From Bacteroidota bacterium (GTDB lineage Bacteria; Bacteroidota; Bacteroidia; J057; JADKCL01): DNA of 64,000 bases. The stretch is taken from assembly GCA_031424495.1 (NCBI GenBank), contig JANPHP010000485.1, positions 1,248 through 65,247 on the forward strand, read 5' to 3'. Both the position numbers and the translations under genes were made by a program. How positions within the stretch are numbered: position 1 is the first letter of the stretch; every line of letters starts with the position of its first letter. The notes beneath the pieces are model-generated. The model searched no databases and was not told the origin of the DNA. It saw only the letters and a list, made by a program, of their open reading frames with translations. Of this stretch, positions 466-13,335 are shown one piece after another.

Positions 466-700
466 CTTTTGGATCGGGTAAAGATACAATTCCTTGCCTA
501 CCGTCATTCCTTGCAATGTGTTCAAAAATACAAATCCAAGCTGGTAACCCATCCCAGAAAACAATCCGGCGTGGGTGGGAGTTTACTATGAAATGGCGCA
601 AGAAACCGCAGCCGCGTTTTCGACTGGCCAGCAAAATTTCTAATTTCGCGTGCCAAGGGTGATTCATTCATCCGCACACAACGTTTAAAATATCTACACA

Positions 701-1297
701 ATGGCTTTTACACTCCCCTCCCTCCCCTACGCTTATGATGCCTTGGAGCCGCATATCGATGCGCGCACCATGGAAATCCACCACACCAAGCATCACCAAG
801 CCTATACCAACAATCTCAATGCAGCCATCGAGGGCACCGACCTCGCCGGCAAAACCATTGAAGAAATCTTGGCAACGGCAATGAGCGGCACGCCCGCGAT
901 CCGCAACAATGGCGGCGGTTTTTGGAACCACAACCTCTTTTGGGAGATCATGGCCCCCAATGGCGGCGGCTTGCCCGAAGGCGAATTGGCAGCGGCGATC
1001 GACCGTGACTTCGGCAACTTTGGCGAATTCAAAGCCAAATTCAATGCTGCCGCAGCAACACGCTTTGGCTCGGGTTGGGCTTGGCTCATCAAGGGCGCCG
1101 ATGGCAAATTGAGCGTGACCAGCACCCCCAACCAAGACAATGCCTTGATGGAGCCCGGCACGGGCACGCCCATCCTCGGCCTCGACGTCTGGGAACATGC
1201 CTACTATCTCCACTACCAAAATCGCCGCCCAGACTACGTCGGCGCGTTTTGGAACGTGATCAATTGGGCCAAGGTGGCCGAGTTGTACAGCAAATAA
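701..1297 (+). CDS. sodA: superoxide dismutase, Fe/Mn family (Mn-type features)
   Basis: The whole 198 aa is colinear with Fe/Mn SODs: [26 protein letters not shown] and [20 protein letters not shown]. The GG..NH and NQD context resembles MnSOD. Confidence 0.95.
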
Positions 1298-1505
1298 TTC
1301 GCGCAGCGATGCTTTTGCAGTGATGAAATGGATCGGGGTGGGCATGCGTTCACCCCGATTTTTTGCGGTATGGATGCCATCGTGCACAGCCGACGCCCGC
1401 ATGCCGGTATGGAATCATGCGCTTGGAAGGCTGCTAGGCGACACAGGACCGAATAGATTTTGCATTCTGGAAAACAATAGCTTATTTAGAACCATTCTAA
1501 ATAAT

Positions 1506-2153
1506 ATGGGCAAGGAGGCGATCAAGATCGTAGTGGCGGATGGGCAGTACCTCACAAGGGCTGGCCTCAAATACCTATTGGCAGGACAGCCGCAACTCAA
1601 GGTCGTGGGCGAGGCCACCGATCGTGACGAGTTGCAACAGGTGGTCAAGGCTATGCTACCCCATCTCGTGATCATTGACCATCACAATACCGATCTATTT
1701 TCCTTAGCAGACGTCGCTTGGATCCGCAGCAAGTATCCCAAAATCAATGTATTGCTGGTGACAGACGATCATGCGCGCAGCCACATCTTCGAATTGCTGG
1801 ACTTGGGCGTAAATTGCATTCTCACCAAACACTGCGGCCCTGAGGAAATTGTAAGTGCTGTCTTGGCGACGCACAAATCGGAAAAGTTCTTTTGCAACAA
1901 AGTCCTCGAAATCATCCTGGAAAAGGAAAATGATGTGGACATCAGTTGCCGCCCCAGCAACCTGAGTACGCGTGAAGCTGAGATCGTGATGCTCATCGCC
2001 AAGGGTGTGACCACCAAAGAGATTGCGGATCAGCTCTGCCTGAGCACGCATACCGTCTACACCCACCGCAAAAACATCATGAAGAAACTCTCGATCAATT
2101 CTGTCTCTGAAATGATCTTGTTTGCGATGCACGCTGGGATCGTGAAGCCCTGA
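1506..2153 (+). CDS. NarL/LuxR-type response regulator (receiver + HTH)
   Basis: The ATG at 1506 gives MGKEAIKIVVADG..., a receiver domain (VIIDHH, LLVTDD, LTKH). The C-terminal LuxR HTH reads LSTREAEIVMLIAKGVTTKEIADQLCLSTHTVYTHRKNIMKKL. The upstream part of the 1320 ORF looks non-coding. Confidence 0.85.
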   Translation: MGKEAIKIVVADGQYLTRAGLKYLLAGQPQLKVVGEATDRDELQQVVKAMLPHLVIIDHHNTDLFSLADVAWIRSKYPKINVLLVTDDHARSHIFELLDLGVNCILTKHCGPEEIVSAVLATHKSEKFFCNKVLEIILEKENDVDISCRPSNLSTREAEIVMLIAKGVTTKEIADQLCLSTHTVYTHRKNIMKKLSINSVSEMILFAMHAGIVKP

Positions 2154-2285
2154 CTACCCAATTTTAGGTAGCAACTTTCTTCAAAAATTGCCCATCATAC
2201 GGTATTGCCTCGGCGTTTCGCACCCATTAGCTTTGCCTCAATTTAGAATGAATCTAAATAAGGACTTAAAGAAATGGATTTACCG

Positions 2286-3347
2286 ATGAAAAAATACCTA
2301 TTCCCCGCATTCTGTCTCATGCTCCTCTGGTCTAGCTGCCGCAACGAGGACGACGACTATAAAGTACCGACGACTTACGATTTTGAAAACGTGAGTTATG
2401 ATGGGCAAATCACACGCCAAAACATGGTTGCCGAGATGACCTCTTATATGGAAACTGGGCGCAACTCCGGAACCGTGATCAATGGTCAGCACCTGAAAGA
2501 TATGTTTGCAAACCAAAACAACCCTTTTACATTCACCAGCACCAAGCAACTCAAAGACAAGTGTTTTCTTGCAGACCAGAACACCTTGGAGAGCTGGATG
2601 GATAGCCTTGCAGCTGCAAGCGCTTCCACGCAGCCCGCAGCCGCAGGCCAAGCCGGTATCGCAACGAGCCTAGATGGCAATGATCGCTACTTGCTGTCTG
2701 CTGGGGGATTTGATTACACAGAAATGATCGAAAAGGGTCTGATGGGCGCTGTGTTTTACTACCAAGCCGTCGGCAACTACCTCACGGCTGCCGAGATCGG
2801 CGATGGGGTAGACAATGAGACCGTGACGCCTGGCGAGGGTACGACCATGCAACACCATTGGGACGAGGCTTTTGGCTACCTGGGCGTGCCCAAAAACTTC
2901 CCTACCAATACGACAGATGCCCGCTTTTGGGGCGAGGCGACGCAGGAGCGTGACGCCCTGCTTGGCTGCAGCAAGATTTTGATGGATGCTTTCCTCCTCG
3001 GCCGCGCGGCCATCAACAACGACGACCACGATACCAAAGATGCCCAAGCACTCAAAATCAGCAATGAATGGGAGCGTGTGATCGCCGCCACGAGCATCCA
3101 TGAATTGAACGAAGCCAAGACTCACCTGAGCGACGACGCATTGCGCAACCATGAAATATCGGAAGCGATGGGCTACATGCGTGGCCTGCGTTGCAGCCCG
3201 CTCAAAAAAATCACCGATAGCCAACTGCAATCCTTGCTGGATAGCTTTGGAAATGACCTCTACAGCATAACTTTGCCCACGATTGATGCGGCACGCAATA
3301 CGCTCGCCGGCATCTATGGATTGGACGCCGTCAAAGACCAACTCTGA
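2286..3347 (+). CDS. lipoprotein, DUF4856-like (family call from memory)
   Basis: MKKYLFPAFCLMLLWSSC is a lipoprotein signal, followed by YDFENVSYDGQITRQNMVAEM. It is the first gene of an operon with imelysin, HTTM and TonB-receptor genes. Confidence 0.6.
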   Translation: MKKYLFPAFCLMLLWSSCRNEDDDYKVPTTYDFENVSYDGQITRQNMVAEMTSYMETGRNSGTVINGQHLKDMFANQNNPFTFTSTKQLKDKCFLADQNTLESWMDSLAAASASTQPAAAGQAGIATSLDGNDRYLLSAGGFDYTEMIEKGLMGAVFYYQAVGNYLTAAEIGDGVDNETVTPGEGTTMQHHWDEAFGYLGVPKNFPTNTTDARFWGEATQERDALLGCSKILMDAFLLGRAAINNDDHDTKDAQALKISNEWERVIAATSIHELNEAKTHLSDDALRNHEISEAMGYMRGLRCSPLKKITDSQLQSLLDSFGNDLYSITLPTIDAARNTLAGIYGLDAVKDQL

Positions 3348-4459
3348 TGAAAAAATTAACCCAGTTTTGTTTACCGCTCATGGCCGCCCTGATGGTGATG
3401 GCGGGTATTGGTTGCAATGACCGCAAGAATGAACCGCTGGAATATGACCGTAGTGCGCTGGTCACCAACGTGAGCGATGGCATCATCGTGCCCGCTTATG
3501 CCGATCTTTTGGCCAAATTGGACAGCTTAAAAGCCCACCAGGCGATTTTCAGGGCCGAACCTTTTGTGCATCGGTTGAACCAATTGCAGTTTGCATATAT
3601 GGACGCTTGGATCAGTTGGAAGCAATGCTCAGCCTTCGAGTTTGGGCCAGCGGCAAGCGTTTCTTTGCGCAGCGCGTTGAATACATTTCCCACCGATACC
3701 ACGCAGATCAAGCTCAATGTGAATGCTGGCAGCTGGGACCTGAACCTTGCTAGCAATACCGATGCACGCGGCTTTCCAGCGATGGATTTTATGCTCTATG
3801 GCCTTGGAAATGACAACTATGACATCTTGGCCAGGTATATCGCCCCGGCAGACTCTGCGCACCTGCAAGCCTACCTCGGCGCGCTTGTGGCCGACATGCA
3901 CGGCCTCGTCGCGGGCGTGCACAACCAATGGACGTCGAGTTATGGGCAGACCTTCAAAGCAAGCTTGGGCACAGACGTGGGCAGTAGCACGAGTCTGTTG
4001 GTGAATGAGTTGAACCGCGATCTCGAGATCGTGAAGACTGCGAGCATCGGCATTCCGCTCGGCAAGCAGACTTTTGATACGCCGCTGCCCGACAAGGTCG
4101 AGGCTCCTTATTCCAACAGTTCGGTGAATCTCGCGGTCGTCGAACTCTTTGGGTTAGAGCGCCTGTATTTGGGCCACAATCGCACGGGCGTGGATGGTTA
4201 TGGGATGGCCTATGCCCTCGACGCTTTGGACGCGCGCTACAACGGAGGCCCCTTGTCGCAGGCCATCGCCAATCAGTTTGTTGTCGCTGAGGACGCGGTC
4301 ACTGTCATTCCAGAGCCGCTGAGTGCGGCTGTGGTGAGCGATCGCTTACTTGTGGAAACTGCCTACAATGAGATTCAGAAACTGGTGATCCTCCTCAAAA
4401 CCGACATGGCCTCCGCCTTGAGCATTTTGATCACCTATACCGATGCCGACGGCGACTGA
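3347..4459 (+). CDS. imelysin-family (peptidase M75-like / EfeO-IrpA-like) lipoprotein
   Basis: The lipoprotein signal is MVMAGIGCND. Its length of about 370 aa and segments such as ARGFPAMDFMLYGLG resemble imelysin-like proteins. The TGATG stop-start overlap at 3345-3349 joins it to the upstream gene. Confidence 0.65.
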   Translation: MKKLTQFCLPLMAALMVMAGIGCNDRKNEPLEYDRSALVTNVSDGIIVPAYADLLAKLDSLKAHQAIFRAEPFVHRLNQLQFAYMDAWISWKQCSAFEFGPAASVSLRSALNTFPTDTTQIKLNVNAGSWDLNLASNTDARGFPAMDFMLYGLGNDNYDILARYIAPADSAHLQAYLGALVADMHGLVAGVHNQWTSSYGQTFKASLGTDVGSSTSLLVNELNRDLEIVKTASIGIPLGKQTFDTPLPDKVEAPYSNSSVNLAVVELFGLERLYLGHNRTGVDGYGMAYALDALDARYNGGPLSQAIANQFVVAEDAVTVIPEPLSAAVVSDRLLVETAYNEIQKLVILLKTDMASALSILITYTDADGD

Positions 4460-4465
4460 CCTGCC

Positions 4466-5848
4466 ATGCAACGCTTGCGCACCTACCTTTCCGAGCCGAT
4501 TTCGATCGCGCCGCTGACGAGTTTCAGGGTGCTGTTTGGCGGCGTCATGCTGGTGAGTGTGCTGCGGTTTTTGTGGAATGGCTGGGTGCATGATTTGTAT
4601 GTAAAACCCACGTTCTTCTTCAAATACTATGGTTTTGAATGGGTGCAGCCTGTGGGCGAAGTCGGCATGTATGCTCTCTTTGGAGTGATGGCCTTGGCTG
4701 CATTGGGTATCGCTTTGGGTTTATTTTACAGGATTGCAGCGGTCACATTTTTCCTCACGTGGACCTACGTCGAGCTGCTCGACGTGACCAATTATTTGAA
4801 CCATTATTACTTCGTCTCCATCGCGGCCTTTTTGCTGATTTGGGTGCCGGCGCACCGCGCATTTGCGGTGGATGCATGGCGTCGGCCTGAAATGGCTCTG
4901 CGGCAGGTGCCGCGCTGGGTCGTGGGTATATTCAGGCTTCAGATGGGCATGGTCTATGTTTTTGCAGGCATCGCCAAGGTGAATACCGATTGGTTGTTGC
5001 GGGCGATGCCGCTCAAGATTTGGTTGGCTTCACGCTCGCACTATCCGCTGATTGGTTGGTTGTTCAAAACGTCGTGGGGTGCGATGGCTTTCAGTTGGAT
5101 GGGTTGCCTGTATGACCTTTGCGTGCCGTTTTTGCTGCTGATGCGACGCACCCGGCCCTTTGCTTTTGGCGCAGTGATCGGGTTTCATTTGCTCACTTGG
5201 TGGCTGTTTCCGATCGGCATGTTTCCCTTCATCATGATCTTGGGGACGCTGATCTATTTGCCTGGGGAATGGCACGAAAAATGGCAGGCACGCATCTTGC
5301 GTTGGTTGCCGTTAAGGCCCGCGAATCTAAGCGGCCTACCTATTGCAAAAATATGGAAACCAAGATACGCGAATGCGTTTCTTCTATTTTTCTGCCTGCA
5401 TTTTACCATCCAACTGTTTTTGCCATTCCGGTATTTGCTGTATCCTGAGAATCTTTTCTGGCATGAGCAAGGCTACCGATTCAGTTGGCGGGTAATGCTC
5501 ATGGAGAAGGCCGGCTATGCCACGTTTCATGTGCGCGACCCGCAGACAGGTCGCTCGACCGAGGTGCAAAACCAAGACTACTTGCAACCCAATCAGGAAC
5601 GCATGATGTCAACGCAACCCGATCTCATTCTCCAATTCGCGCATTTCCTGGATGCTGAATATCAGCGCAAGGGCATTCAAAATCCCGAAGTCTATGCCGA
5701 CGTCTTCGCCACGCTCAACGGCAGCGGTTCGCGGCCTTTCATCGATCCCAAGGTCGATTTGAGTATGGTGGAGGATGGATTTGGGACTAAACAATTTATC
5801 CTGCCTTTTGAGCAGAATTTGCCAACATACTCACTGGAAACCCGATGA
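4466..5848 (+). CDS. HTTM domain membrane protein (vitamin K-dependent gamma-carboxylase-like)
   Basis: Polytopic membrane protein. The N-terminus SIAPLTSFRVLFGGVMLVSVLRFLWNGWVHDLYVKPTFFFKYYGFEWV matches the HTTM-domain pattern as I recall it. Confidence 0.75.
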   Translation: MQRLRTYLSEPISIAPLTSFRVLFGGVMLVSVLRFLWNGWVHDLYVKPTFFFKYYGFEWVQPVGEVGMYALFGVMALAALGIALGLFYRIAAVTFFLTWTYVELLDVTNYLNHYYFVSIAAFLLIWVPAHRAFAVDAWRRPEMALRQVPRWVVGIFRLQMGMVYVFAGIAKVNTDWLLRAMPLKIWLASRSHYPLIGWLFKTSWGAMAFSWMGCLYDLCVPFLLLMRRTRPFAFGAVIGFHLLTWWLFPIGMFPFIMILGTLIYLPGEWHEKWQARILRWLPLRPANLSGLPIAKIWKPRYANAFLLFFCLHFTIQLFLPFRYLLYPENLFWHEQGYRFSWRVMLMEKAGYATFHVRDPQTGRSTEVQNQDYLQPNQERMMSTQPDLILQFAHFLDAEYQRKGIQNPEVYADVFATLNGSGSRPFIDPKVDLSMVEDGFGTKQFILPFEQNLPTYSLETR

Positions 5849-8286
5849 AAGTTTTGCGTTTCCTTTTTGTTGCAATTGTTTTCTTACTATTCATGTCTTC
5901 GGTGGAAGCGCAGTCGATTCGCGGCCAAATATCCCTTGTTCGTGACGGTCATCATGAAAGCTACCGCATGGAGGAAGACTCTATCCATGTGGTTTTGCTG
6001 CCCAGCGGCGAGAAAACGATTACCGACTCGGCGGGCTATTACCGTTTCGGCCCCTTGAAACCTGGGAAATATAAGGTCGTGGTCGTCCTTGCTGAGGGGG
6101 TATATACCCGTGAGAAGGAGGTGACCCTGCTGAACCAAGATGTCACCGTCGATTTTGAGCTTACGGTCTCCGAGTATCAAATATCGCAAGTAGAACTCAC
6201 CGACCAAGCCAATAGCGTGAATTGGATGCGCTCGGTCGAGGGAACGGGCATCTACGCTGCCCGCAAATGCGAGCTGATCAACATCGACCAAGTGACAGGC
6301 AATCTCGCGACCAACAATGCCCGCCAAGTCTTCAACCGCGTCGCAGGCCTCAACATCTGGGAAAACGACGGCGGGGGCCTGCAACTCGGCATCGGTGGTC
6401 GGGGCCTGAGCCCCAACCGCAGCAGCAATTTCAACACGCGCCAAAACGGCTATGACATAGCCGCCGACGCGCTCGGCTATCCCGAGAGCTACTATTCGCC
6501 GCCGATCGAGGCGCTACGGCGCATCGAGGTTGTGCGCGGTGCCGCGAGCCTGCAATACGGCACCCAATTTGGCGGCATGGTCAATTTTCAATTCAAAGAA
6601 GGCCCTGAGGACAAAAAAATCCAGCTCACTTCGCGGCAGACAGGCGGCAGCTTTGGCTTTTTCAGCAGCTTCAATAGTATCGGTGGGCAGGTCGCCAAAG
6701 GCAAGCTCAATTACTATGCCTTCTACCAAGGCAAGCGCGGCAATGGATGGCGCGCCAACAGTGGTTTCCAACAGCATACAGCCTACGGCGGGCTGCGTTG
6801 GCAACTGAGCCCAGCGGTCAAGATTGGTGCGGAGTACACCTATATGCATTACCTCGCGCAGCAGGCGGGCGGGCTCACAGACGCGATGTTTGCACGCGAC
6901 CCGCGCCAAAGCATTCGCGATCGCAATTGGTTCCAAGTCGATTGGAACCTCGCTGCCGTGACTGCCGACATTCGTCTTTCAGCCTCTACCAAGCTCAATA
7001 TCAGAAACTTTGGCTTGTATGCACGCCGTGATGCGCTGGGCTTTTTGGGAGCGATCAATCGCATCGATCCGGGCGGAAACCGAGATTTGATTTCGGGTTC
7101 CTTCCAAAATTTTGGGAATGAGACCCGGCTCATGCACAAGTATGACATCCGCCATCGCCCTGCGGCCTTGCTAATTGGTGCCCGCTACTACCAAGGTTAC
7201 ACAACCGCGCAACAAGGCGCTGCCAATGCAGGCAGTGGAGCAAATTTCCAATTGCTGCACCCTGAGCAGCCCGAAGGCAGCGACTACGCCTTCCCTAGCC
7301 GCAACATCGCCGCATTTGCCGAGCAAGTTTTCAACCTGAGCAGCAAGTGGACACTCGTTCCCGGCATCCGTTACGAATTCATCCGCACCTCGTCGGTCGG
7401 TAGCTACCAAGTGCGCAACACCGACCTCGCCGGCAACGTGATCTTTGAGGCCACCGTCGCCGACAACCGCAGCCGCGACCGCAATGTCCTGCTTGCAGGC
7501 CTCGGCTCGGCATTCAAACCCAACGATCGCTTGGAGCTCTACGGCAATATTTCCCGCAACTACCGCGCGATCACATTCAACGACATGCGCGTCGCCAATC
7601 CCAATTTCCAGATCGACCCCAATCTCAAAGACGAAAAAGGCTTCAATGCAGACCTCGGTTTCAGGGGCAGTGCGGGCAAATGGTTCACCTTTGATGCCAG
7701 TGTGTTTTACCTCTATTATCAAGACCGCATCGGGCAGGTTTTGAAGACCGATACTGCGACCTTTCGCTATTACCGCTACCGCACCAATGTATCAGACAGC
7801 CGCAATGTGGGCCTAGAATGGTATGCAGAGGCCGATTTTATGCGGATGGGAGCCGCCAATCACAACAACTCGCGCTTGGCACTCTTCACGAACTTTGCTT
7901 GGATCGACGCGCGCTACATGGGCAGTCAGGAGCCTGCCTTTCGCGGCAAATTTGTGGAGCTCGTGCCTAAGATGAATCTCAAAGTCGGTATCGATTTTCG
8001 GCACAAAAACCTCCGCGCCAATGCACAATGGTCATTTGTGACCCAGCAATACAGCGACGCGACCAATGCCGAGACGTCGCCATCCGCAGTCGAGGGGCTC
8101 ATTCCGGCCTACAACATTTTGGACTTCTCGGCGGGCTATACTTGGAAAATGTTAAGTCTGGAGGCGAGCTGCAACAATGCACTCGACCAAATGTACTTTA
8201 CCCGGCGGGCAGCGGCCTACCCGGGCCCTGGGATCATCCCTAGCGATGGTCGCAGCTTTTTTGTGACCTTGCAGGTGAAGATTTGA
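5845..8286 (+). CDS. TonB-dependent receptor with N-terminal carboxypeptidase-regulatory-like domain
   Basis: Signal peptide, then a GKYKVVVV-type beta-sandwich, a plug region (GTGIYAARKCELINIDQVTGNLATNNARQVFNRVAGLNIWE, RIEVVRGAASLQYG) and a long beta-barrel. An ATGA overlap joins it to the HTTM gene. Confidence 0.85.
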   Translation: MKVLRFLFVAIVFLLFMSSVEAQSIRGQISLVRDGHHESYRMEEDSIHVVLLPSGEKTITDSAGYYRFGPLKPGKYKVVVVLAEGVYTREKEVTLLNQDVTVDFELTVSEYQISQVELTDQANSVNWMRSVEGTGIYAARKCELINIDQVTGNLATNNARQVFNRVAGLNIWENDGGGLQLGIGGRGLSPNRSSNFNTRQNGYDIAADALGYPESYYSPPIEALRRIEVVRGAASLQYGTQFGGMVNFQFKEGPEDKKIQLTSRQTGGSFGFFSSFNSIGGQVAKGKLNYYAFYQGKRGNGWRANSGFQQHTAYGGLRWQLSPAVKIGAEYTYMHYLAQQAGGLTDAMFARDPRQSIRDRNWFQVDWNLAAVTADIRLSASTKLNIRNFGLYARRDALGFLGAINRIDPGGNRDLISGSFQNFGNETRLMHKYDIRHRPAALLIGARYYQGYTTAQQGAANAGSGANFQLLHPEQPEGSDYAFPSRNIAAFAEQVFNLSSKWTLVPGIRYEFIRTSSVGSYQVRNTDLAGNVIFEATVADNRSRDRNVLLAGLGSAFKPNDRLELYGNISRNYRAITFNDMRVANPNFQIDPNLKDEKGFNADLGFRGSAGKWFTFDASVFYLYYQDRIGQVLKTDTATFRYYRYRTNVSDSRNVGLEWYAEADFMRMGAANHNNSRLALFTNFAWIDARYMGSQEPAFRGKFVELVPKMNLKVGIDFRHKNLRANAQWSFVTQQYSDATNAETSPSAVEGLIPAYNILDFSAGYTWKMLSLEASCNNALDQMYFTRRAAAYPGPGIIPSDGRSFFVTLQVKI

Positions 8287-8300
8287 GTGGAAGGTGCGGC

Positions 8301-9215
8301 CTATTTCTTCCCAAACAACCAATTCTTGGGCTTCAAACCGTCGAGCCAACCGGGCTTGGACCTGCGGCCACGGGAGGGAGTGCCGATCTCAAAGGGTAGC
8401 ACGGCAATGAGTTGCTCCATGAAGACGATTTCCAGGGTATACTCTCCGTCATACCATGTGCCTGCGGTGGAGCTGCCCCAGCCACCACAAATGTCGCCAG
8501 TCACCATGCTGGGCGCAAGCAGTGCAAGCTGATCATTGCGGCCTTTCAATTCGCGCGAACTGGTGTAAAACATGAAGCTCATCTCGCAAACCCATTCCTG
8601 CTGCCGCTGTAGGTTCTTGATCATGCATTCTGCCCAGAGATAACGTGTGGTGTCCCTTTGAAAACTGCTCGTATAGTTGCGATCCTCCAGACGATGCGGT
8701 AAATCTGATGGCCCCTCAAACAGCTTGACGGAGACAATGTCAAAATAGGGGTTGTGGTCGTGCGTGACGGTCCCTTCGCTTTGGACTCCAAAAGCCTGCT
8801 CTCCAACTGCTACGTCATCGATCCAAGCCACCCAGGCATAGGTGCCTACTGTCCAATAGGCGCCGGGGTTTGCATTGCCCCATCCATGATGCGCATAAAT
8901 GATGGGCTGATCCTTCGAGACTTTGACAATGACCTCTTGGCTTGCGAGCTCTTTCAGGTGTTGACCCTCCGCATTGAGGGGATGACATTTGAAAATGACC
9001 TTCAATTCCCAGTCTTCGAGATCGAAACGCTTGTTGTAGAGACTCAACTCGGCATACACATAGGAAAGCTTGCTGGCGTCAAACACCTTTCGGTATCTTT
9101 TCTTACCGTCTGCCAGAAACTCCGGCGATGCATAAGACAACAAATCCCGAAACTTGAAGTCCGTAAAACTGCTCGTGTTTTCAGTTGCCATTGGAAGCGT
9201 CGCAAAAAGCGTCAT
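8301..9215 (-). CDS. hypothetical cytoplasmic protein built from two homologous ~130-aa repeats
   Basis: No signal peptide. Repeat 1 (RKVFDASKLSYVYAELSLYN...HHGWGNANPGAYWTVGTYAWVAWIDDVAVGEQAFGV) parallels repeat 2 (SSFQRDTTRYLWAECMIKN...GGWGSSTAGTWYDGEYTLEIVFMEQLIAVLPFEI). Confidence 0.6.
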   Translation of the reverse strand: MTLFATLPMATENTSSFTDFKFRDLLSYASPEFLADGKKRYRKVFDASKLSYVYAELSLYNKRFDLEDWELKVIFKCHPLNAEGQHLKELASQEVIVKVSKDQPIIYAHHGWGNANPGAYWTVGTYAWVAWIDDVAVGEQAFGVQSEGTVTHDHNPYFDIVSVKLFEGPSDLPHRLEDRNYTSSFQRDTTRYLWAECMIKNLQRQQEWVCEMSFMFYTSSRELKGRNDQLALLAPSMVTGDICGGWGSSTAGTWYDGEYTLEIVFMEQLIAVLPFEIGTPSRGRRSKPGWLDGLKPKNWLFGKK

Positions 9216-9956: not shown

Positions 9957-11081
9957 ATGAAAGCGCAAGAAGATATCGAGCGGCAATTGGCTGCAGCGCA
10001 AGACGCTTGGGAGACGTCGCCAGCACCTGAGTTGTGGGAGCGCCTAGAGCAGCGTCTGGACGCGCAACTGCCCACACAAGGGGCAAAGGCGCCACGCAGG
10101 TGGCCCTTCAGGATCGTCATGATCGCCCTTCTGGCAACCGCAGGATTTGGCATCTGGGCGCTGCTGCCGACCGGCAAGGCGGCCCAGGTCAGCCAAGGCA
10201 AGGCTTTTGTGGGGCATGAGACCAGCTTTCATCCGCAAATGCCGCTTGCCGCTGGCCAGCCGATGCATATAGATGAAGTTGATGTCCAAAACATTGCTGC
10301 AAGCCTCGACCCAAATGCAGCCCCAGCACTTGCAGCTGCAAGGATTCCACAGCCGACGGGCCTGAGCAGCAGCCCCGCATCGCCCAGCTACAATACGAAT
10401 GGCTTCCTTCAAGTCAATGGGAACTCCGCGCAAGCGCCGATTGCGAATCTAATGCCCCTCACCAACTGGGCATCTACGGGGCTCGTCGTGAGCAATAGCA
10501 TGGGCAACCCCATCGACACCGTAAGTTCTCTGCGGCAATTTCGCAACTTGGTATCCCCGCAAGACAATGCCTATCTGCAGATCAATCCGTCGCGTAACCA
10601 AATGAATTTCAACTATGCAGGAGCCACGCCAGTCGACAATCAGCAGAACTTGCAGCACCTGAAATGGCTGCTTGGAAGCTGGAAGACGCAGGGCTCAAGT
10701 GGCGGAGCGATGGAGGATTGGCGGCAAAAAGATGATTTTACCTTGATCGGCCGAGGCTATTTTGTGGTGAACGGAGACACGGTCGTCACGGAAGAAATGC
10801 GCATCGAGCAGCGGGGTCCCGATACGTATTTCATTCTGCTCAAGGACCAAAATCATAAATCGATGAAATTCCGATTGCGGTCTAGCCAACCCAATGAGTT
10901 GATTTTTCAAAATGCCGTGTCCAAGGAAGAGGATGAATTGGTACTGCGCAACTTGCCAGCGACCAATGAACTCGAACGTGTGCTGCAGCCCTCGCCAACG
11001 AGGTCTACAGAAACGAGTTCAAAGCCAGATTTTTATCCATCCAAGAGCAAGCAGGTGTTGCAGCGCAGCCGTCGCCCCTAG
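9957..11081 (+). CDS. putative anti-sigma factor / single-pass membrane protein
   Basis: It starts 1 nt after the sigma gene stop. It has a short cytoplasmic N-terminus, one TM helix (FRIVMIALLATAGFGIWALL), a low-complexity linker and a C-terminal globular domain of about 110 aa. Confidence 0.55.
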   Translation: MKAQEDIERQLAAAQDAWETSPAPELWERLEQRLDAQLPTQGAKAPRRWPFRIVMIALLATAGFGIWALLPTGKAAQVSQGKAFVGHETSFHPQMPLAAGQPMHIDEVDVQNIAASLDPNAAPALAAARIPQPTGLSSSPASPSYNTNGFLQVNGNSAQAPIANLMPLTNWASTGLVVSNSMGNPIDTVSSLRQFRNLVSPQDNAYLQINPSRNQMNFNYAGATPVDNQQNLQHLKWLLGSWKTQGSSGGAMEDWRQKDDFTLIGRGYFVVNGDTVVTEEMRIEQRGPDTYFILLKDQNHKSMKFRLRSSQPNELIFQNAVSKEEDELVLRNLPATNELERVLQPSPTRSTETSSKPDFYPSKSKQVLQRSRRP

Positions 11082-11210: not shown

Positions 11211-12272
11211 ATGAAAACTAGCATTTTATCTCCCTCCAAATTGCTGAAAGTCATGGGCTTGCTCACGCTCATCGCCCTTTCCTACGCGCGGCTCCTGGCC
11301 GGCGGCGGATTCCTGTCGGTGCATCCCGAGGGGCTGCTGAACGGCTGGCAATTGGCAGTCGCCAACAATGACCCGATGCAGCCTATGCAGCACATATATT
11401 ATGTGAATCCTGCCTATGAGCCCTATGCTGTCAATCGCATCAACTACAATCCGCAACTGCCCGAGGTGGATGCCTATCTTTTGCAAGGAGAGCAAACCGA
11501 CACCCATCCACGCACGTCTTCCTTGCTCAACGATGACAGTAACCCATTTTCAGGTCCCATGAGTTACGTCACGAAGCCCGATGCGGCCGCTGCCTACCTG
11601 CACGCCCATGGTTGGGACGCAATTCTGGTCAAGATCGGCAAAGGCTATCCCAATCTCGTTTTGGAGAGCATCCAAGAAGACAGGCTGGTATTTTTGGGAG
11701 GCTTGCCCGAAACGAATCCCTTTCCAAACGATAGTTCGTTTTCCTTGATCGAAATGCCCACCAACCTTTCGCGCTGCGTGCTCGTGCGCAACAACCCTGC
11801 TGAACAGGATTGGATGACGGCGCAAACCAACAGCTTGATCGACAACAATATTCAACAGCAAATCACAGCGATACCCGACAACGTTGTGCAAGAAATCGTC
11901 TGGCTGGATGAAGGGGATTTTGGGAACATCGTGCAGGTCTTGGAAACGAATGCTGATTTGAGCGACGAGCCTGAAGCTGCTGCCACTGAGGAGGCCTACA
12001 AGCAGGAAGAAGCCATAGAATCTGCGATTTTGGAGATTCAAGCGTGGCCCAATCCGACAAGGGATGGGTTTCAGGTGAAGATACAGGGGTTTGAGGGAGA
12101 AACGCTTACGCTACAAGTCTTGTCATCGGAGGGGCAGCTGCTCATGAGCCGTGTAGATGTAGTGGGCGCAGCGGGATTTGACCTTTCCCAATATGCGGCG
12201 GGCACATATTATGTGCGTGCATTGACGGCTAGTGGCCGCACTTGGTCCACGCCTGTGATTTTGCAGCGCTGA
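11211..12272 (+). CDS. secreted hypothetical protein with T9SS C-terminal sorting domain
   Basis: It has a signal peptide and a C-terminus typical of Por/T9SS CTDs: IQAWPNPTRDGFQVKIQGFEGETLTLQVLSSEGQLLMS...AGTYYVRALTASGRTWSTPVILQR. Confidence 0.7.
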   Translation: MKTSILSPSKLLKVMGLLTLIALSYARLLAGGGFLSVHPEGLLNGWQLAVANNDPMQPMQHIYYVNPAYEPYAVNRINYNPQLPEVDAYLLQGEQTDTHPRTSSLLNDDSNPFSGPMSYVTKPDAAAAYLHAHGWDAILVKIGKGYPNLVLESIQEDRLVFLGGLPETNPFPNDSSFSLIEMPTNLSRCVLVRNNPAEQDWMTAQTNSLIDNNIQQQITAIPDNVVQEIVWLDEGDFGNIVQVLETNADLSDEPEAAATEEAYKQEEAIESAILEIQAWPNPTRDGFQVKIQGFEGETLTLQVLSSEGQLLMSRVDVVGAAGFDLSQYAAGTYYVRALTASGRTWSTPVILQR

Positions 12273-12381: not shown

Positions 12382-13335
12382 ATGAAAAAGCTACTTTCTT
12401 TATCGCTGCGCTGTGGCCTTGCGATGATTGGTTTCATGCTGCTGGTGCAGGCAGCCCGCGCAGGCGGAGCTGCAGTGCCCTTTCGTCAAACGTGGAGGGT
12501 GAGCTGGGCTACGCCATCTGACAGCGTCAAGTTTGACAAATTTCTTGGACGCGGCGAGCCCGCAGTCGATGAAGCATGCGACGTTGCTAACTGTGTGGCG
12601 TGTAGGGTGCGCAACGTGAACACGTCCACCGAGCTAGCTTTCAAGGACTGTCCATTGCATGTCGCTGATGCTACACATCAATGTGCTGACTTTGGCAGTT
12701 GGTGGCAGCAGCCTGTCGAGGCAACCCCTGCGAATGGGAAGCATGCAACTGCGGACTTCGGTTGCGCATTCACCAAGTGCCTCCATTGTCGAGCCAAGGC
12801 CTTGGGGCATGCGTCGGCCTCAGGGCAGGTCTGCAGCCACCATGCCGACAATACGGTGCACTATTGCCATGGGGTGACGGTGAGTACCACCACGTTCCAA
12901 GACATGAATCCCTCCTTAAGGTTTCCGATCATCGAGGAACTGCAAATTCGCAGCATGCCCTCAGTATCGGCATCAACCGATCATGATGGTGCACAGACGC
13001 TGACCTTTGATCTTGCGAATGAGGGAGCACAGTTGCTCGGAGAGTCGGGGAATGAAGAATTGAAAACTTCAGCTATACCGACTTCACAAGGGATTTTTGA
13101 GGCCCAATTTGCGGATGCGACACAGTTTCCGATCATGGTTAGCATCCTCAACGATCATGGAACCGTCATTTTGGAGCATCACGCGGAGGGGTCGAAGCTA
13201 GGCTTTGACCTCGCGAGCTTCCCCGCCGGCGTCTACAAGCTCTCTGCTCGCAATGCAAAAGGGGAATCTTGGGTAGGCGACATTGACTTGCAGACAGGCT
13301 ATCCTGCCAATTTCAATCTCAATTTTGGCTATTGA
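12382..13335 (+). CDS. secreted Cys/His-rich hypothetical protein (duplicated 5-Cys module, CTD-like tail)
   Basis: The signal peptide is MKKLLSLSLRCGLAMIGFMLLVQAARA. Two modules of C-x4-C-x2-C-R-x14/15-C-x10-C span residues 66-101 and 128-162. The tail VSILNDHGTVILEHH...FPAGVYKLSARNAKGESW resembles a T9SS CTD. Confidence 0.65.
   Translation: MKKLLSLSLRCGLAMIGFMLLVQAARAGGAAVPFRQTWRVSWATPSDSVKFDKFLGRGEPAVDEACDVANCVACRVRNVNTSTELAFKDCPLHVADATHQCADFGSWWQQPVEATPANGKHATADFGCAFTKCLHCRAKALGHASASGQVCSHHADNTVHYCHGVTVSTTTFQDMNPSLRFPIIEELQIRSMPSVSASTDHDGAQTLTFDLANEGAQLLGESGNEELKTSAIPTSQGIFEAQFADATQFPIMVSILNDHGTVILEHHAEGSKLGFDLASFPAGVYKLSARNAKGESWVGDIDLQTGYPANFNLNFGY

What the first reader, a model, noticed from the sequence alone, without database searches (positions are those of the whole stretch)
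2286..8286. Translationally coupled lipoprotein / imelysin / HTTM (gamma-carboxylase-like) / TonB-receptor operon
Seen in the sequence: four same-strand genes are packed with a TGATG overlap (3345-3349), a 6-nt gap (4460-4465) and an ATGA overlap (5845-5848). They encode two lipoproteins, one polytopic membrane protein and one outer-membrane receptor. Established knowledge: imelysin/EfeO/IrpA-like proteins are linked to iron acquisition. HTTM is the bacterial counterpart of the membrane domain of vitamin K-dependent gamma-glutamyl carboxylase, and to my knowledge it has no demonstrated bacterial activity. Inference: this is an envelope uptake module in which the HTTM protein performs an unknown membrane-associated chemistry, possibly on one of the co-encoded lipoproteins or on the transported ligand. 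In the imelysin ORF, the segment GFPAMDFMLYG occupies what I recall as a conserved His/Glu-containing site, so metal binding may be altered. That point is recollection only.
Basis: partly seen in the sequence, partly recalled or inferred. Interest (0 to 1): 0.55.

Follow-up and report, generated by a model that had tools for sequence, protein, structure and literature searches.

The report
Iron-regulated uptake operon with carboxylase homologue
This is a four-gene, iron-starvation-controlled outer-membrane uptake operon conserved across aerobic Bacteroidota. Its inner-membrane component is a seemingly active bacterial relative of the human vitamin K-dependent carboxylase, always paired with a lipoprotein ending in the same acidic tail, which points to a testable role for these enzymes in bacteria.

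Summary
Four same-strand genes (2274/2286-8286) are joined by TGATG, a 6-nt gap and ATGA. They encode a DUF4856 lipoprotein, an imelysin-like lipoprotein, an HTTM + VKGC-lumenal membrane protein and a TonB-dependent receptor.

The cassette keeps this order in 72 of 80 related genomes. No other gene is conserved next to it.

New findings:
1. A Fur box (2241-2259, 17/19 identical to the Riemerella consensus, 1 mismatch when its central base is left free) lies 5 nt after a -7 promoter box. Similar sites precede the cassette in 54 of 72 loci, a 333-fold enrichment. The Riemerella orthologues are induced by low iron and by fur deletion.
2. The HTTM protein keeps the catalytic Lys, the naphthoquinone pocket and the CO2/Glu-pocket residues of human GGCX in 81 of 81 sequences. 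It lacks the propeptide-binding C-terminal region.
4. All 82 imelysins immediately upstream of an HTTM gene, in Bacteroidota, Myxococcota and unclassified metagenome contigs, end in D-G/N-D-COOH. None of 120 canonical imelysins do.

Best reading: a Fur-repressed iron-uptake cassette in which a menaquinol-driven carboxylase works on or with its imelysin partner. The chemistry is inferred, not shown.

The parts
2154..2171 (+). Terminator-like hairpin directly after the stop of the upstream response-regulator gene. It marks the upstream edge of the operon's control region.
   Evidence: Consensus scan. Weak on its own: terminator-like sites in the region are no more frequent than in shuffles.
2228..2235 (+). 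TAGCTTTG, an exact match to the Bacteroidota -7 promoter element TAnnTTTG. An ATTG at 2204-2207, 20 nt upstream, is a possible -33 element.
   Evidence: Read from the sequence. The consensus is from my own knowledge, and the -7/-33 elements are also mentioned in PMC5609570. In 28 of the 41 related loci that have both elements, the Fur site starts 5-7 nt after such a box. Here the distance is 5 nt.
2241..2259 (.). Fur box ATTTAGAATGAATCTAAAT. It is 17/19 identical to the Riemerella anatipestifer Fur-box consensus ATTTAGAATTATTCTAAAT (1 mismatch to the searched pattern, whose central base was left as N) and overlaps the expected transcription start.
   Evidence: only 2 matches with up to 3 mismatches in 64 kb, against 0.01 expected; the same site is found within 220 nt upstream of the first cassette gene in 54 of 72 loci. 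The consensus and EMSA are from PMC5609570.
2274..3347 (+). DUF4856 lipoprotein (alternative start 2286; lipobox Cys codon 2337-2339). The acidic stretch after the Cys (RNEDDD) resembles the Bacteroidota surface-export signal. The invariant polar cluster is H190, D193, E194, H289 and E293.
   Evidence: Pfam. Lipobox and acidic linker in 70 of 73 orthologues. Conservation. AlphaFold model with pLDDT 93.8, all-alpha. No relative among solved structures.
2853..2867 (+). HHWDE motif of DUF4856 (residues 190-194 counted from the 2286 start). It is a candidate ligand or metal site.
   Evidence: H190 67/73, D193 72/73, E194 69/73. A second helix carries H289 73/73 and E293 73/73.
3347..4459 (+). Imelysin-like lipoprotein (lipobox Cys codon 3413-3415).
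   Evidence: Pfam Peptidase_M75, E 9e-30. PDB relatives are 3n8u, 4ecg and 3pf0.
3770..3802 (+). GFPAMDFMLYG, the position of the family's GxHxxE motif, here GxPxxD.
   Evidence: Alignment to PIBO 3n8u. Pro 70/77 and Asp 60/77 in cassette orthologues. Coordinates checked.
4442..4456 (+). D-A-D-G-D at the exact C-terminus of the imelysin-like protein. This tail is invariant in HTTM-linked imelysins.
   Evidence: 77 of 77 cassette imelysins end in D-x-D-G-D; five further HTTM-adjacent imelysins (two Myxococcota, three metagenome contigs) end in DGD or DND. Controls: 0 of 120 canonical imelysins and no other ORF among 1442 apart from one paralogue.
4466..5848 (+). Inner-membrane HTTM + VKGC-lumenal-domain protein, a homologue of human gamma-glutamyl carboxylase residues 49-490. 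Catalytic Lys171 is at nt 4976-4978 and His113 at nt 4802-4804.
   Evidence: Pfam. PDB phmmer E 2e-39. Residue mapping. AlphaFold model matches only GGCX in the PDB (E 1e-17, TM 0.72-0.76).
5845..8286 (+). TonB-dependent outer-membrane receptor: signal peptide, CarboxypepD_reg domain, plug, 22-strand-type barrel. Its start overlaps the HTTM stop (ATGA).
   Evidence: Pfam. NCBIfam siderophore, haem and FecA models hit but all fall below their cut-offs. Only weak PDB relatives.

Best explanation
Window 2228-8286 is one Fur-repressed operon. It is an ordinary copy of a self-contained four-gene cassette for TonB-dependent iron acquisition that is conserved in gene order across aerobic Bacteroidota, including the Balneolales/Rhodothermales lineages.

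How it is controlled (shown by sequence plus literature): with iron present, Fur sits on a 19-bp palindrome that starts 5 nt after the -7 promoter box and blocks initiation. Under iron starvation the four genes are co-transcribed and translationally coupled.

[quoted passage not shown] That homologue keeps the catalytic Lys, the naphthoquinone pocket, the CO2-trapping Phe/His and the carboxylate-binding Asn/His/Tyr, but lacks the propeptide-binding C-terminal region.

How it most likely works (inferred): the enzyme uses the cell's own menaquinol (vitamin K2, the respiratory quinone of these bacteria) plus O2 at a periplasm-facing, membrane-interface active site to generate a strong base. It then carboxylates an acidic residue of its dedicated partner, the imelysin-like lipoprotein, most probably in the free C-terminal Asp-rich tail. 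This would create malonate-type chelating groups that bind Fe(III), or an iron ligand brought in by the receptor, and pass it on. DUF4856 is the likely surface or periplasmic ligand-capture protein for the receptor.

My confidence by layer: Fur-controlled iron-uptake operon about 0.85; catalytically competent quinol-dependent enzyme about 0.7; imelysin as its direct partner about 0.6; carboxylation of the C-terminal tail about 0.3.
For: Operon and cassette. The junctions are confirmed. The order DUF4856-imelysin-HTTM-receptor is found in 72 of 80 related genomes, with 3 genuine exceptions. No other flanking gene family is shared by more than 7 of 80 loci. Intergenic distances are short or overlapping.

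Iron and Fur. The Fur box at 2241-2259 is one of only 2 matches in 64 kb, against 0.01 expected. There are 74 such sites in 15.8 kb upstream of the cassette versus 18 in 1.28 Mb elsewhere, and 54 of 72 loci have one. The spacing to the TAnnTTTG box is fixed at 5-7 nt in 28 of 41 loci. In Riemerella anatipestifer the adjacent genes RAYM_09779 to RAYM_09794 (TonB receptor, 'vitamin K-dependent gamma-carboxylase', 'lipoprotein imelysin', hypothetical) all rise under low iron (ratios 2.1-3.1) and in the fur mutant (1.4-1.9). Boxes of this consensus bind Fur in EMSA (PMC5609570).

Enzyme competence. Human K218, H160, N159, V210, A214, W223, G259, D263, F286, F294, F299 and M402 correspond to identical residues that are invariant or nearly so in 81 sequences (M402 was scored in the 15-sequence and 12-sequence alignments only). 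Y395 is Y in 69 and F in 12. The fold matches only GGCX. Wu et al. report independently that the catalytic and CO2 residues are conserved in bacterial orthologues, including a flavobacterium, and that MloH carboxylates Asp.

Imelysin as partner. Imelysin-HTTM adjacency recurs without DUF4856, and sometimes without the receptor, in unclassified metagenome contigs (L086, L087, L089) and in Myxococcota (L093, L094). All 82 HTTM-adjacent imelysins end in D-G/N-D-COOH, against 0 of 120 canonical imelysins and no unrelated ORF.
Against: No biochemical data exist for any member of this cassette. Carboxylation, the substrate and even vitamin K epoxidase activity are untested.

The tail could be a docking or metal-binding element rather than a substrate.

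The main-chain contacts for the Gla domain in human GGCX (N158, R436) and K217 are replaced (L, M/Q, A), and the propeptide exosite is absent, so substrate recognition must differ.

The HTTM model has low confidence (pLDDT below 50) over residues 325-348, the linker that forms part of the Glu pocket.

HTTM is coupled most tightly to the receptor gene (overlap in 40 of 66). This would also fit an enzyme that processes the imported ligand.

The tail-specificity control is one clade of canonical imelysins. IPPA-type imelysins that are not next to an HTTM gene were not sampled.

The Fur assignment rests on one species' consensus. Fur-family paralogues (PerR, Zur) can bind similar palindromes.

That the fourth Riemerella gene is DUF4856 is assumed from its position and was not checked.
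Confidence: 0.55

Rival explanations
1. The HTTM protein is a menaquinol-driven redox enzyme, either a ferric-chelate reductase or an oxygenase, that processes the iron ligand imported by the receptor. It would play the role of the inner-membrane reductases paired with TonB receptors elsewhere (FoxB, XusC/PepSY type). The imelysin tail would only dock the lipoprotein or carry the metal to the active site.
For: The tightest gene coupling is between HTTM and the receptor (overlap in 40 of 66, within 20 nt in 58 of 66). L029 keeps only HTTM and the receptor. The quinone pocket and catalytic Lys are invariant. A haem-free, iron-free redox partner would make sense under iron starvation (inference). 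Imelysins are usually paired with a redox enzyme such as EfeB or DUF1111 (Xu 2011).
Against: The residues that trap CO2 and hold the substrate carboxylate (F299, H160, N159, Y395, M402) are conserved as strictly as the quinone pocket. This is not required of a simple reductase. In Myxococcota HTTM occurs with imelysins and a di-haem oxidoreductase but without a receptor. No HTTM protein is known to reduce metals.
Confidence: 0.2
2. The enzyme is a true carboxylase, but its substrate is not the imelysin tail. The substrate could be DUF4856, another envelope protein, or a small carboxylate ligand. The imelysin-like protein would then be a non-substrate subunit that replaces the missing propeptide-binding domain of GGCX and presents the substrate.
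For: The bacterial protein ends near human residue 490 and lacks the PBD-2/CTD region. In Firmicutes a separate DUF5819 protein is predicted to occupy the place of part of the GGCX lumenal region next to an HTTM protein (bioRxiv 10.64898/2026.08.19.745780). DUF4856 has a conserved D/E-rich linker next to its membrane anchor. MloH acts on a small-molecule intermediate.
Against: DUF4856 is dispensable in the L005, L086, L087, L089, L093 and L094 contexts, whereas the imelysin and its tail persist. The D/E-rich linker is explained by the general Bacteroidota lipoprotein export signal. The cassette contains no biosynthetic genes for a small molecule.
Confidence: 0.15
3. The cassette is not primarily for iron. 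The palindrome would be bound by another Fur-family regulator (PerR- or Zur-like), and the module would serve oxidative-stress defence or uptake of another metal or cofactor.
For: Leptospira imelysin operons are induced by peroxide as well as by low iron (PMC7567364). The window has a superoxide dismutase gene 1 kb upstream and a second copy of the box in front of a response regulator. The receptor reaches no curated siderophore or haem receptor cut-off, and one of its weak PDB relatives is the PQQ transporter.
Against: The Riemerella orthologues respond to iron restriction and to fur deletion, and boxes of this consensus bind purified Fur. The imelysin family is iron-regulated in several phyla. 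L087 carries a TonB gene and a periplasmic binding protein next to the module.
Confidence: 0.07
4. The HTTM protein is a non-catalytic scaffold or membrane anchor, and the conservation only reflects fold stability.
For: No activity has been measured. The exosite is missing.
Against: The catalytic Lys, the acid-base partner Asp, the CO2-stacking Phe and the carboxylate-binding Asn/His are each 81/81 identical to the human enzyme at 25-26% overall identity. This is the signature of a retained active site.
Confidence: 0.03

Closest known systems
[quoted passage not shown]
   Same: Homologous over human residues 49-490 (E 2e-39; model TM 0.72-0.76). Same multi-pass HTTM membrane domain plus the first lumenal domain. 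Identical catalytic Lys218, Asp263, naphthoquinone pocket (V210, W223, F286, F294, F299, H160), CO2-trapping Phe299/His160 and carboxylate-binding Asn159/Tyr395.
   Different: About 300 residues shorter, with no propeptide-binding PBD-2/CTD. N158, K217, M401, H404 and R436 are replaced, and the Glu-pocket linker carries two extra basic residues (R338, R342). It sits in a bacterial inner membrane, would use menaquinol, and is encoded in an iron-regulated uptake operon. No Gla-domain substrates are present.
MloH of Streptomyces (malonomycin biosynthesis), the only bacterial VKGC orthologue with a shown carboxylase role in the papers I read
   Same: A bacterial HTTM/VKGC-type enzyme that carboxylates an aspartyl residue. 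This is the precedent for Asp rather than Glu as the target.
   Different: MloH acts on a PKS-NRPS intermediate inside an antibiotic gene cluster. Here there are no biosynthetic genes; the neighbours are lipoproteins and a TonB receptor. The sequence relationship to MloH was not tested.
Canonical imelysin clusters (P. aeruginosa PA4370-PA4373, V. cholerae VC1264-1266, Leptospira LruB operon; EfeUOB)
   Same: Fur- or iron-regulated envelope systems containing imelysin-fold lipoproteins, often one with GxHxxE and one without the His (IPPA type). In Myxococcota the same imelysin, di-haem oxidoreductase, imelysin trio is followed directly by an HTTM gene.
   Different: The Bacteroidota cassette has no EfeB or DUF1111 peroxidase and no EfeU permease. 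Its single imelysin is His-less (GxPxxD) and carries a C-terminal DxDGD tail absent from 120 canonical imelysins. It adds DUF4856 and a TonB receptor.
TonB receptor plus lipoprotein plus inner-membrane processing protein modules (Bacteroides XusABC; FoxA/FoxB; HmuY/HmuR). The comparison is from my own knowledge, except that HmuYR is Fur-regulated in Riemerella.
   Same: The same logic: an outer-membrane receptor, a lipoprotein that captures the ligand, and an inner-membrane protein that chemically processes it, all under iron control.
   Different: The inner-membrane partner here is an HTTM/VKGC enzyme rather than a PepSY-type reductase. The lipoproteins belong to other families, and the ligand is unknown.

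Membership tests
HTTM / vitamin K-dependent carboxylase (VKGC) family | HTTM membrane domain above the Pfam gathering score | tested here: met
   PF05090: 274.8 bits against a cut-off of 27.7, residues 11-269.
HTTM / vitamin K-dependent carboxylase (VKGC) family | VKGC lumenal domain following the membrane domain | tested here: met
   PF22777: 191.3 bits, residues 303-450, covering profile positions 3-151 of 152. The model matches only GGCX chains in the PDB.
HTTM / vitamin K-dependent carboxylase (VKGC) family | Catalytic base Lys218 and its partner Asp263 | tested here: met
   K171 and D217, both 81/81.
HTTM / vitamin K-dependent carboxylase (VKGC) family | Naphthoquinone head-group pocket (V210, W223, F286, F294, F299, H160) and tail tunnel (A214, G259) | tested here: met
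   Identical residues, 79-81 of 81. Tail-tunnel residues N290, G258, V254 and V255 differ.
HTTM / vitamin K-dependent carboxylase (VKGC) family | Substrate carboxylate and CO2 site (N159, H160, Y395, F299, M401/M402) | tested here: met
   N112 and H113 81/81; Y337 is Y in 69 and F in 12; F253 81/81; M401 becomes V343 (81/81). M402 corresponds to M344, invariant in alignment A1 (15 sequences) and M in all six imelysin-linked proteins of the 12-sequence alignment. The main-chain contacts N158 and R436 are not kept.
HTTM / vitamin K-dependent carboxylase (VKGC) family | Propeptide-binding exosite (human residues about 495-513 and the C-terminal domain) | tested here: not met
   The alignment ends at human residue 490 and the protein ends 26 residues later. 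This is therefore a VKGC-family enzyme but not a GGCX-type propeptide-directed carboxylase.
HTTM / vitamin K-dependent carboxylase (VKGC) family | Quinol epoxidase and carboxylase activity | not testable with these tools
   Needs membranes, menaquinol, O2 and labelled bicarbonate.
Imelysin-like superfamily (Peptidase_M75) | Imelysin domain above the Pfam gathering score | tested here: met
   PF09375: 104.6 bits against a cut-off of 23.5, residues 47-344. PDB 3n8u E 1.7e-9, 4ecg E 1.3e-5.
Imelysin-like superfamily (Peptidase_M75) | GxHxxE functional-site motif (imelysin, IrpA and EfeO families of Xu 2011) | tested here: not met
   GFPAMD here; Pro 70/77 and Asp 60/77 in orthologues. It resembles the His-less IPPA family (GxxxxE, Pro194), but the Glu is also changed. 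By sequence it is closer to PIBO/IrpA than to IPPA (E 0.012).
Imelysin-like superfamily (Peptidase_M75) | Genomic association with an EfeB or DUF1111 peroxidase | tested here: not met
   No conserved neighbour beyond the four genes in 80 Bacteroidota loci. The association is met in the Myxococcota loci L093 and L094 and in L089.
DUF4856 | Pfam DUF4856 domain | tested here: met
   PF16148: 126 bits against a cut-off of 22.3. All 40 aligned homologues match. The family has no known function or solved structure.
TonB-dependent receptors | Plug domain plus beta-barrel | tested here: met
   PF07715 and PF00593 above their cut-offs.
TonB-dependent receptors | Membership of a curated substrate class (siderophore, haem, FecA, PqqU and others) | tested here: not met
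   All NCBIfam hits are far below their cut-offs, for example TIGR01783 at 120 bits against 223.5.
Bacteroidota Fur regulon | Fur box at the promoter | tested here: met
   2241-2259 is 17/19 identical to the Riemerella consensus (1 mismatch to the searched pattern with a free central base), 5 nt after the -7 box, and conserved in 54 of 72 loci.
Bacteroidota Fur regulon | Iron- and Fur-dependent expression | not testable with these tools
   Shown only for the Riemerella orthologues, in PMC5609570 Table 4.

The most novel reading that the evidence does not exclude
Bacterial VKGC homologues have a physiological protein substrate. In iron-starved Bacteroidota and Myxococcota they would use menaquinol and O2 to carboxylate the invariant C-terminal Asp-x-Asp-Gly-Asp tail of a dedicated imelysin-like lipoprotein. 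This would turn it into a protein-borne, malonate-type Fe(III) chelator that works with a TonB-dependent receptor. It would be a vitamin K-dependent post-translational modification in bacteria, and an iron-uptake principle not described before.
Probability: 0.25. Interest if true: 0.9.

Novelty: new variant of a known kind. Interest (0 to 1): 0.68.

Why it matters
What bacterial relatives of the vitamin K-dependent carboxylase do has been open since they were first seen in genomes. The only assigned role I found in the papers read is in one antibiotic pathway (MloH).

Its active site is intact, and it is always partnered with an imelysin-like lipoprotein carrying a unique acidic C-terminal tail.

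This ties together three poorly understood families (HTTM, imelysin, DUF4856). It gives imelysin biology a new enzymatic partner. It also turns a vague 'unknown membrane chemistry' into a single experiment: look for HTTM-dependent +44 Da on one defined C-terminal peptide in culturable, genetically tractable bacteria such as Riemerella, Flavobacterium or Melittangium.

If the enzyme is active, it also implies O2- and menaquinone-dependent iron acquisition in a major environmental phylum.

Tried and rejected

2. HTTM as the replacement for the EfeB/DUF1111 peroxidase that normally accompanies imelysins. Weakened, because in Myxococcota and in L089 the di-haem oxidoreductase and HTTM occur in the same cluster.

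3. The upstream response regulator (1506-2153) as the cassette's dedicated regulator. Rejected, because no flanking family is shared by more than 7 of 80 loci.

4. Assigning the receptor's ligand from homology. All curated models fall below their cut-offs, and the PDB relatives are weak.

5. Finding the C-terminal tail in solved imelysin structures. No alignment was obtained.

6. Prior descriptions of the module. Full-text searches for HTTM + imelysin, for DUF4856, for HTTM + TonB-dependent and for 'K-dependent gamma-carboxylase' + TonB returned either nothing or only the Riemerella Fur paper and an unrelated DUF-interaction preprint.

7. The genuine exceptions L005, L029 and L059 were inspected for alternative partners. 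Their neighbours are unrelated.

8. Source organism. The exact HTTM protein occurs only in two metagenome runs. The nearest named relatives are Cytophagales at 54-59% identity.

Full report
**1. Observation**

The junctions are exactly as described: TGATG at 3345-3349, TGA-CCTGCC-ATG giving a 6-nt gap at 4460-4465, and ATGA at 5845-5848.

Pfam assigns the four proteins as follows:
- DUF4856, E 2e-36.
- Peptidase_M75/imelysin, E 9e-30.
- HTTM, E 1e-81, plus the VKGC lumenal domain, E 1e-56.
- CarboxypepD_reg + Plug + TonB-dependent barrel.

NCBIfam gives the receptor only sub-threshold hits to siderophore, haem and FecA models. Both small proteins have a signal peptide ending in a lipobox Cys.

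**2. Is the arrangement meaningful?**

The best 80 loci were fetched with 10-kb flanks. They come from Cytophagales, Flavobacteriales, Chitinophagales/Saprospiraceae, Sphingobacteriales, Balneolales and Rhodothermales.

tblastn with the four window proteins shows the order DUF4856, imelysin, HTTM, receptor on one strand in 72 of 80 loci. Five of the remaining eight are cut by contig ends. Three are genuine variants: L005 lacks DUF4856, L029 has only HTTM and the receptor, and L059 lacks an adjacent receptor.

Clustering all flanking ORFs shows that no other gene family is shared by more than 7 of 80 loci. The four genes are therefore a self-contained cassette inserted in varied neighbourhoods. 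Gene spacing is tight throughout. HTTM and the receptor overlap in 40 of 66 loci and lie within 20 nt in 58 of 66. Imelysin and HTTM lie within 20 nt in 40 of 76.

**3. Regulation**

One paper in the library holds both 'imelysin' and 'vitamin K-dependent carboxylase': the Fur study of Riemerella anatipestifer (PMC5609570). Its Table 4 lists four adjacent genes:
- RAYM_09779, TonB-dependent receptor.
- RAYM_09789, lipoprotein imelysin.
- RAYM_09794, hypothetical.

All four are raised by iron restriction (ratios 2.11-3.07) and in the fur mutant with iron (1.36-1.93). The paper derives a Fur box, ATTTAGAATTATTCTAAAT, and shows Fur binding to four promoters with such boxes. The authors do not comment on the module. 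That RAYM_09794 is DUF4856 is my assumption from its position.

In the window this palindrome (searched with its central base as N, up to 3 mismatches allowed) occurs only twice in 64 kb, against 0.01 expected from shuffles. One site is at 2241-2259 (17/19 identical to the Riemerella consensus), 14 nt before ATG 2274 and 26 nt before ATG 2286. The other is at 1484-1502, 3 nt before the ATG of an upstream response regulator.

In the related loci, 54 of 72 evaluable ones have at least one such site within 220 nt upstream of the DUF4856 start. That is 74 sites in 15.8 kb against 18 in the remaining 1.28 Mb, a 333-fold enrichment. Shuffled upstream regions give 0.135 sites per replicate.

The window has TAGCTTTG, an exact Bacteroidota -7 element (TAnnTTTG), at 2228-2235, so the Fur box starts 5 nt later. 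The same 5-7 nt spacing is found in 28 of the 41 loci that have both elements. The box thus covers the expected transcription start, the classic position for repression. A terminator-like hairpin at 2154-2171 separates the operon from the upstream gene.

I conclude that the cassette is a conserved member of the Fur regulon. Expression itself is shown only for Riemerella.

**4. The HTTM protein**

It aligns to human gamma-glutamyl carboxylase residues 49-490 (E 2e-39). An AlphaFold model (pLDDT 76.6) matches only GGCX chains in the PDB (E 1e-17, TM 0.72-0.76 normalised to the query, 25-26% identity).

I mapped the residues identified in the cryo-EM papers (Zhong et al.; Wu et al.) onto 81 cassette proteins, except where noted:
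- The catalytic base K218 corresponds to K171 (81/81), and its partner D263 to D217 (81/81).
- The naphthoquinone pocket residues V210, W223, F286, F294, F299 and H160 are identical and invariant or nearly so. A214 and G259 of the tail tunnel are also identical.
- Of the residues that hold the substrate carboxylate and trap CO2, N159 and H160 are 81/81 and F299 is 81/81. Y395 is Y in 69 and F in 12. M402 corresponds to M344, which is invariant in the 15-sequence alignment A1 and M in all six imelysin-linked proteins of the 12-sequence alignment.
- Not conserved are K217 (Ala), N158 (Leu), M401 (Val), H404 (Met) and R436 (Met/Gln). In the human enzyme these contact the Gla-domain main chain or couple to the propeptide-binding domain.
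- The Glu-pocket linker gains two bacterial-invariant arginines, R338 and R342, at human G396 and D400.
- The protein ends about 26 residues after human position 490, so the propeptide-binding PBD-2/CTD is absent.

Wu et al. reported independently that the catalytic and CO2 residues are conserved in bacterial orthologues, including the flavobacterium Kordia algicida, and cite MloH as an Asp carboxylase.

The protein is best read as a catalytically competent VKGC-family enzyme with a different mode of substrate recognition. These bacteria use menaquinone (vitamin K2) as their respiratory quinone (my own knowledge), so the cofactor would be at hand in the inner membrane.

**5. The imelysin-like protein**

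It matches PIBO (3n8u, E 1.7e-9), BDI_2603 (4ecg) and, weakly, IPPA (3pf0). The segment RGFPAMDFMLY aligns with RGFHTLEFLLY of PIBO, so the family's GxHxxE is GxPxxD here. In 77 cassette orthologues the position is Pro in 70 and the acid is Asp in 60. Xu et al. (PMC3143127) describe a His-less IPPA family with Pro at this position but with the Glu retained.

A feature that I did not find described in the papers I read is the C-terminus. All 77 proteins, which tblastn shows to be only 28-46% identical to the window protein, end exactly in D-x-D-G-D-COOH. The window has ITYTDADGD, nt 4430-4456. The tail lies outside the Pfam domain. Among 1442 ORFs of at least 100 residues in the window and the 80 loci, only these proteins and one paralogue (L001) end this way.

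**6. How far does the HTTM-imelysin link reach?**

An exhaustive search found 4742 cluster representatives at E up to 1e-3 and 1661 at E up to 1e-30. I sampled nine representatives at 36-43% identity.
- Six are stand-alone genes in unrelated contexts: L083, L085, L088, L090, L091 and L092.
- Three have an imelysin gene immediately upstream:
  - L086: imelysin-HTTM.
  - L087: binding protein, TonB, imelysin, HTTM, receptor, without DUF4856.
  - L089: a GxHxxE imelysin fused to a di-haem oxidoreductase, then a second imelysin, then HTTM.

Two myxobacterial genomes reached through the canonical imelysin of L089 are Melittangium boletus and Myxococcales bacterium 68-20. Both show imelysin(GxHxxE), di-haem oxidoreductase, imelysin 2, HTTM.

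The five HTTM-adjacent imelysins in these loci end in TDNDGD, TDADND, NETDGD, NDNDGD and NVTDGD. This holds even where the protein keeps GxHxxE (L089).

In total, 82 of 82 imelysins directly upstream of an HTTM gene end in D-G/N-D-COOH. By contrast, 0 of 120 canonical imelysins (119 of them with GxHxxE) do. The first imelysins of L093 and L094 do not, and neither do the tail-less extra paralogues in L049 and L051.

The tail therefore tracks adjacency to HTTM across phyla. That argues for a direct functional contact between the tail and the enzyme. The control is limited to one clade of canonical imelysins.

**7. DUF4856 and the receptor**

DUF4856 has no hit in the literature library and no sequence or profile relative in the PDB. 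A confident all-alpha model (pLDDT 93.8) has no Foldseek match at E below 1. It is not detectably related to imelysin.

Its conserved polar residues are H190, D193 and E194 on one helix and H289 and E293 on another. They look like a ligand or metal site, but their proximity in 3D could not be checked.

The four to six residues after its lipid-anchored Cys are strongly acidic in 70 of 73 orthologues. This resembles the Bacteroidota lipoprotein surface-export signal (my own knowledge). The protein may therefore be the surface ligand-capture partner of the receptor.

The receptor cannot be assigned to a ligand class.

**8. Mechanism**

Shown:
- Operon structure, cassette conservation and the Fur box.
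- Iron/Fur response of the orthologues in one species.
- An intact VKGC-type active site.
- Loss of the imelysin His.
- The HTTM-linked C-terminal tail.

Inferred:
- Under iron starvation the enzyme oxidises menaquinol with O2 and carboxylates its imelysin partner, most plausibly the exposed Asp-rich tail (there is a precedent for Asp in MloH). This would produce malonate-type groups suited to binding Fe(III).
- The receptor and DUF4856 bring the iron source across the outer membrane.

Rivals:
- A quinol-driven reductase or oxygenase acting on the imported ligand, supported by the very tight HTTM-receptor coupling.
- A carboxylase whose substrate is something else, with the imelysin as a presenting subunit.
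- A non-iron role under another Fur-family regulator.
- A dead scaffold.

None can be excluded without biochemistry. I give the layered best explanation 0.55 overall and the specific tail-carboxylation step about 0.3.

**9. Novelty and verdict**

The window's copy is an ordinary member of a widespread cassette, and gene-by-gene annotation of such loci already exists in public genomes. I found no paper that describes the module, its Fur box, the conserved catalytic centre in this context, or the HTTM-linked imelysin tail. It is a new variant of a known kind of system, a Fur-regulated TonB-dependent uptake locus with a VKGC-type enzyme as its inner-membrane partner. Interest is moderately high, because it makes the long-open question of what bacterial VKGC homologues do directly testable.

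Noticed in passing
window 1484-1502 and 1506-2153 (+): A second Fur-box-like site (ATTTAGAACCATTCTAAAT, 1 mismatch to the searched pattern) lies 3 nt before the ATG of a REC + LuxR-HTH response regulator directly upstream of the operon. This regulator is not a conserved neighbour of the cassette in other genomes.
   Followed up: partly
window 701-1297 (+): An Fe/Mn superoxide dismutase gene lies just upstream of the Fur-boxed response regulator. A long antisense ORF (668-1402, minus strand) overlapping it is probably spurious.
   Followed up: no
window 4000-6000: AT skew drops to between -0.2 and -0.3 across the HTTM gene. This is probably the T-rich codon usage of a Phe/Leu-rich membrane protein and not a separate feature.
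   Followed up: no
window 9957-11081 (+) and 11211-12272 (+): Downstream genes encode a DUF6265 protein and a protein with a type IX secretion C-terminal sorting domain. ORFs 8301-9215 (minus strand) and 12382-13335 have no Pfam match.
   Followed up: no
L006, L007, L012, L021-L023, L031, L048 (Pontibacter), about 50-125 nt upstream of DUF4856: These loci carry two Fur-box-like sites about 61 nt apart in front of the cassette, which suggests cooperative or double operator sites.
   Followed up: no
L001 6032-7165; L049 and L051 6440-7555; L027 5694-7154; L057 2353-3501: Some genomes carry an extra imelysin or an extra DUF4856 gene directly upstream of the cassette. The extra imelysins also lack the His. 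The L001 copy has the DNDGD tail, while the L049 and L051 copies end in ...EITY without it.
   Followed up: partly
L093 (Melittangium boletus CP022163.1, 2224505-2241683) and L094: In Myxococcota the classic iron-regulated trio of imelysin, di-haem oxidoreductase (DHOR/DUF1111) and imelysin is followed by an HTTM/VKGC gene and has no TonB receptor. L089 even fuses the first imelysin to the oxidoreductase.
   Followed up: partly
L087 3037-9515: A distant version of the module reads periplasmic binding protein, TonB C-terminal-domain protein, imelysin (tail TDADND), HTTM, receptor. It has no DUF4856, and the receptor has no CarboxypepD_reg domain.
   Followed up: partly
L092 5001-6845: A stand-alone HTTM/VKGC gene lies next to a DCC1-like thiol-disulfide oxidoreductase gene on the opposite strand. 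This echoes the HTTM-DCC fusions mentioned in the DUF-interaction preprint.
   Followed up: no
L025 6796-6814; L078 13967-13985: Perfect or near-perfect Fur boxes occur elsewhere in a few loci, for example just downstream of the receptor in L078. They probably serve neighbouring iron genes.
   Followed up: no
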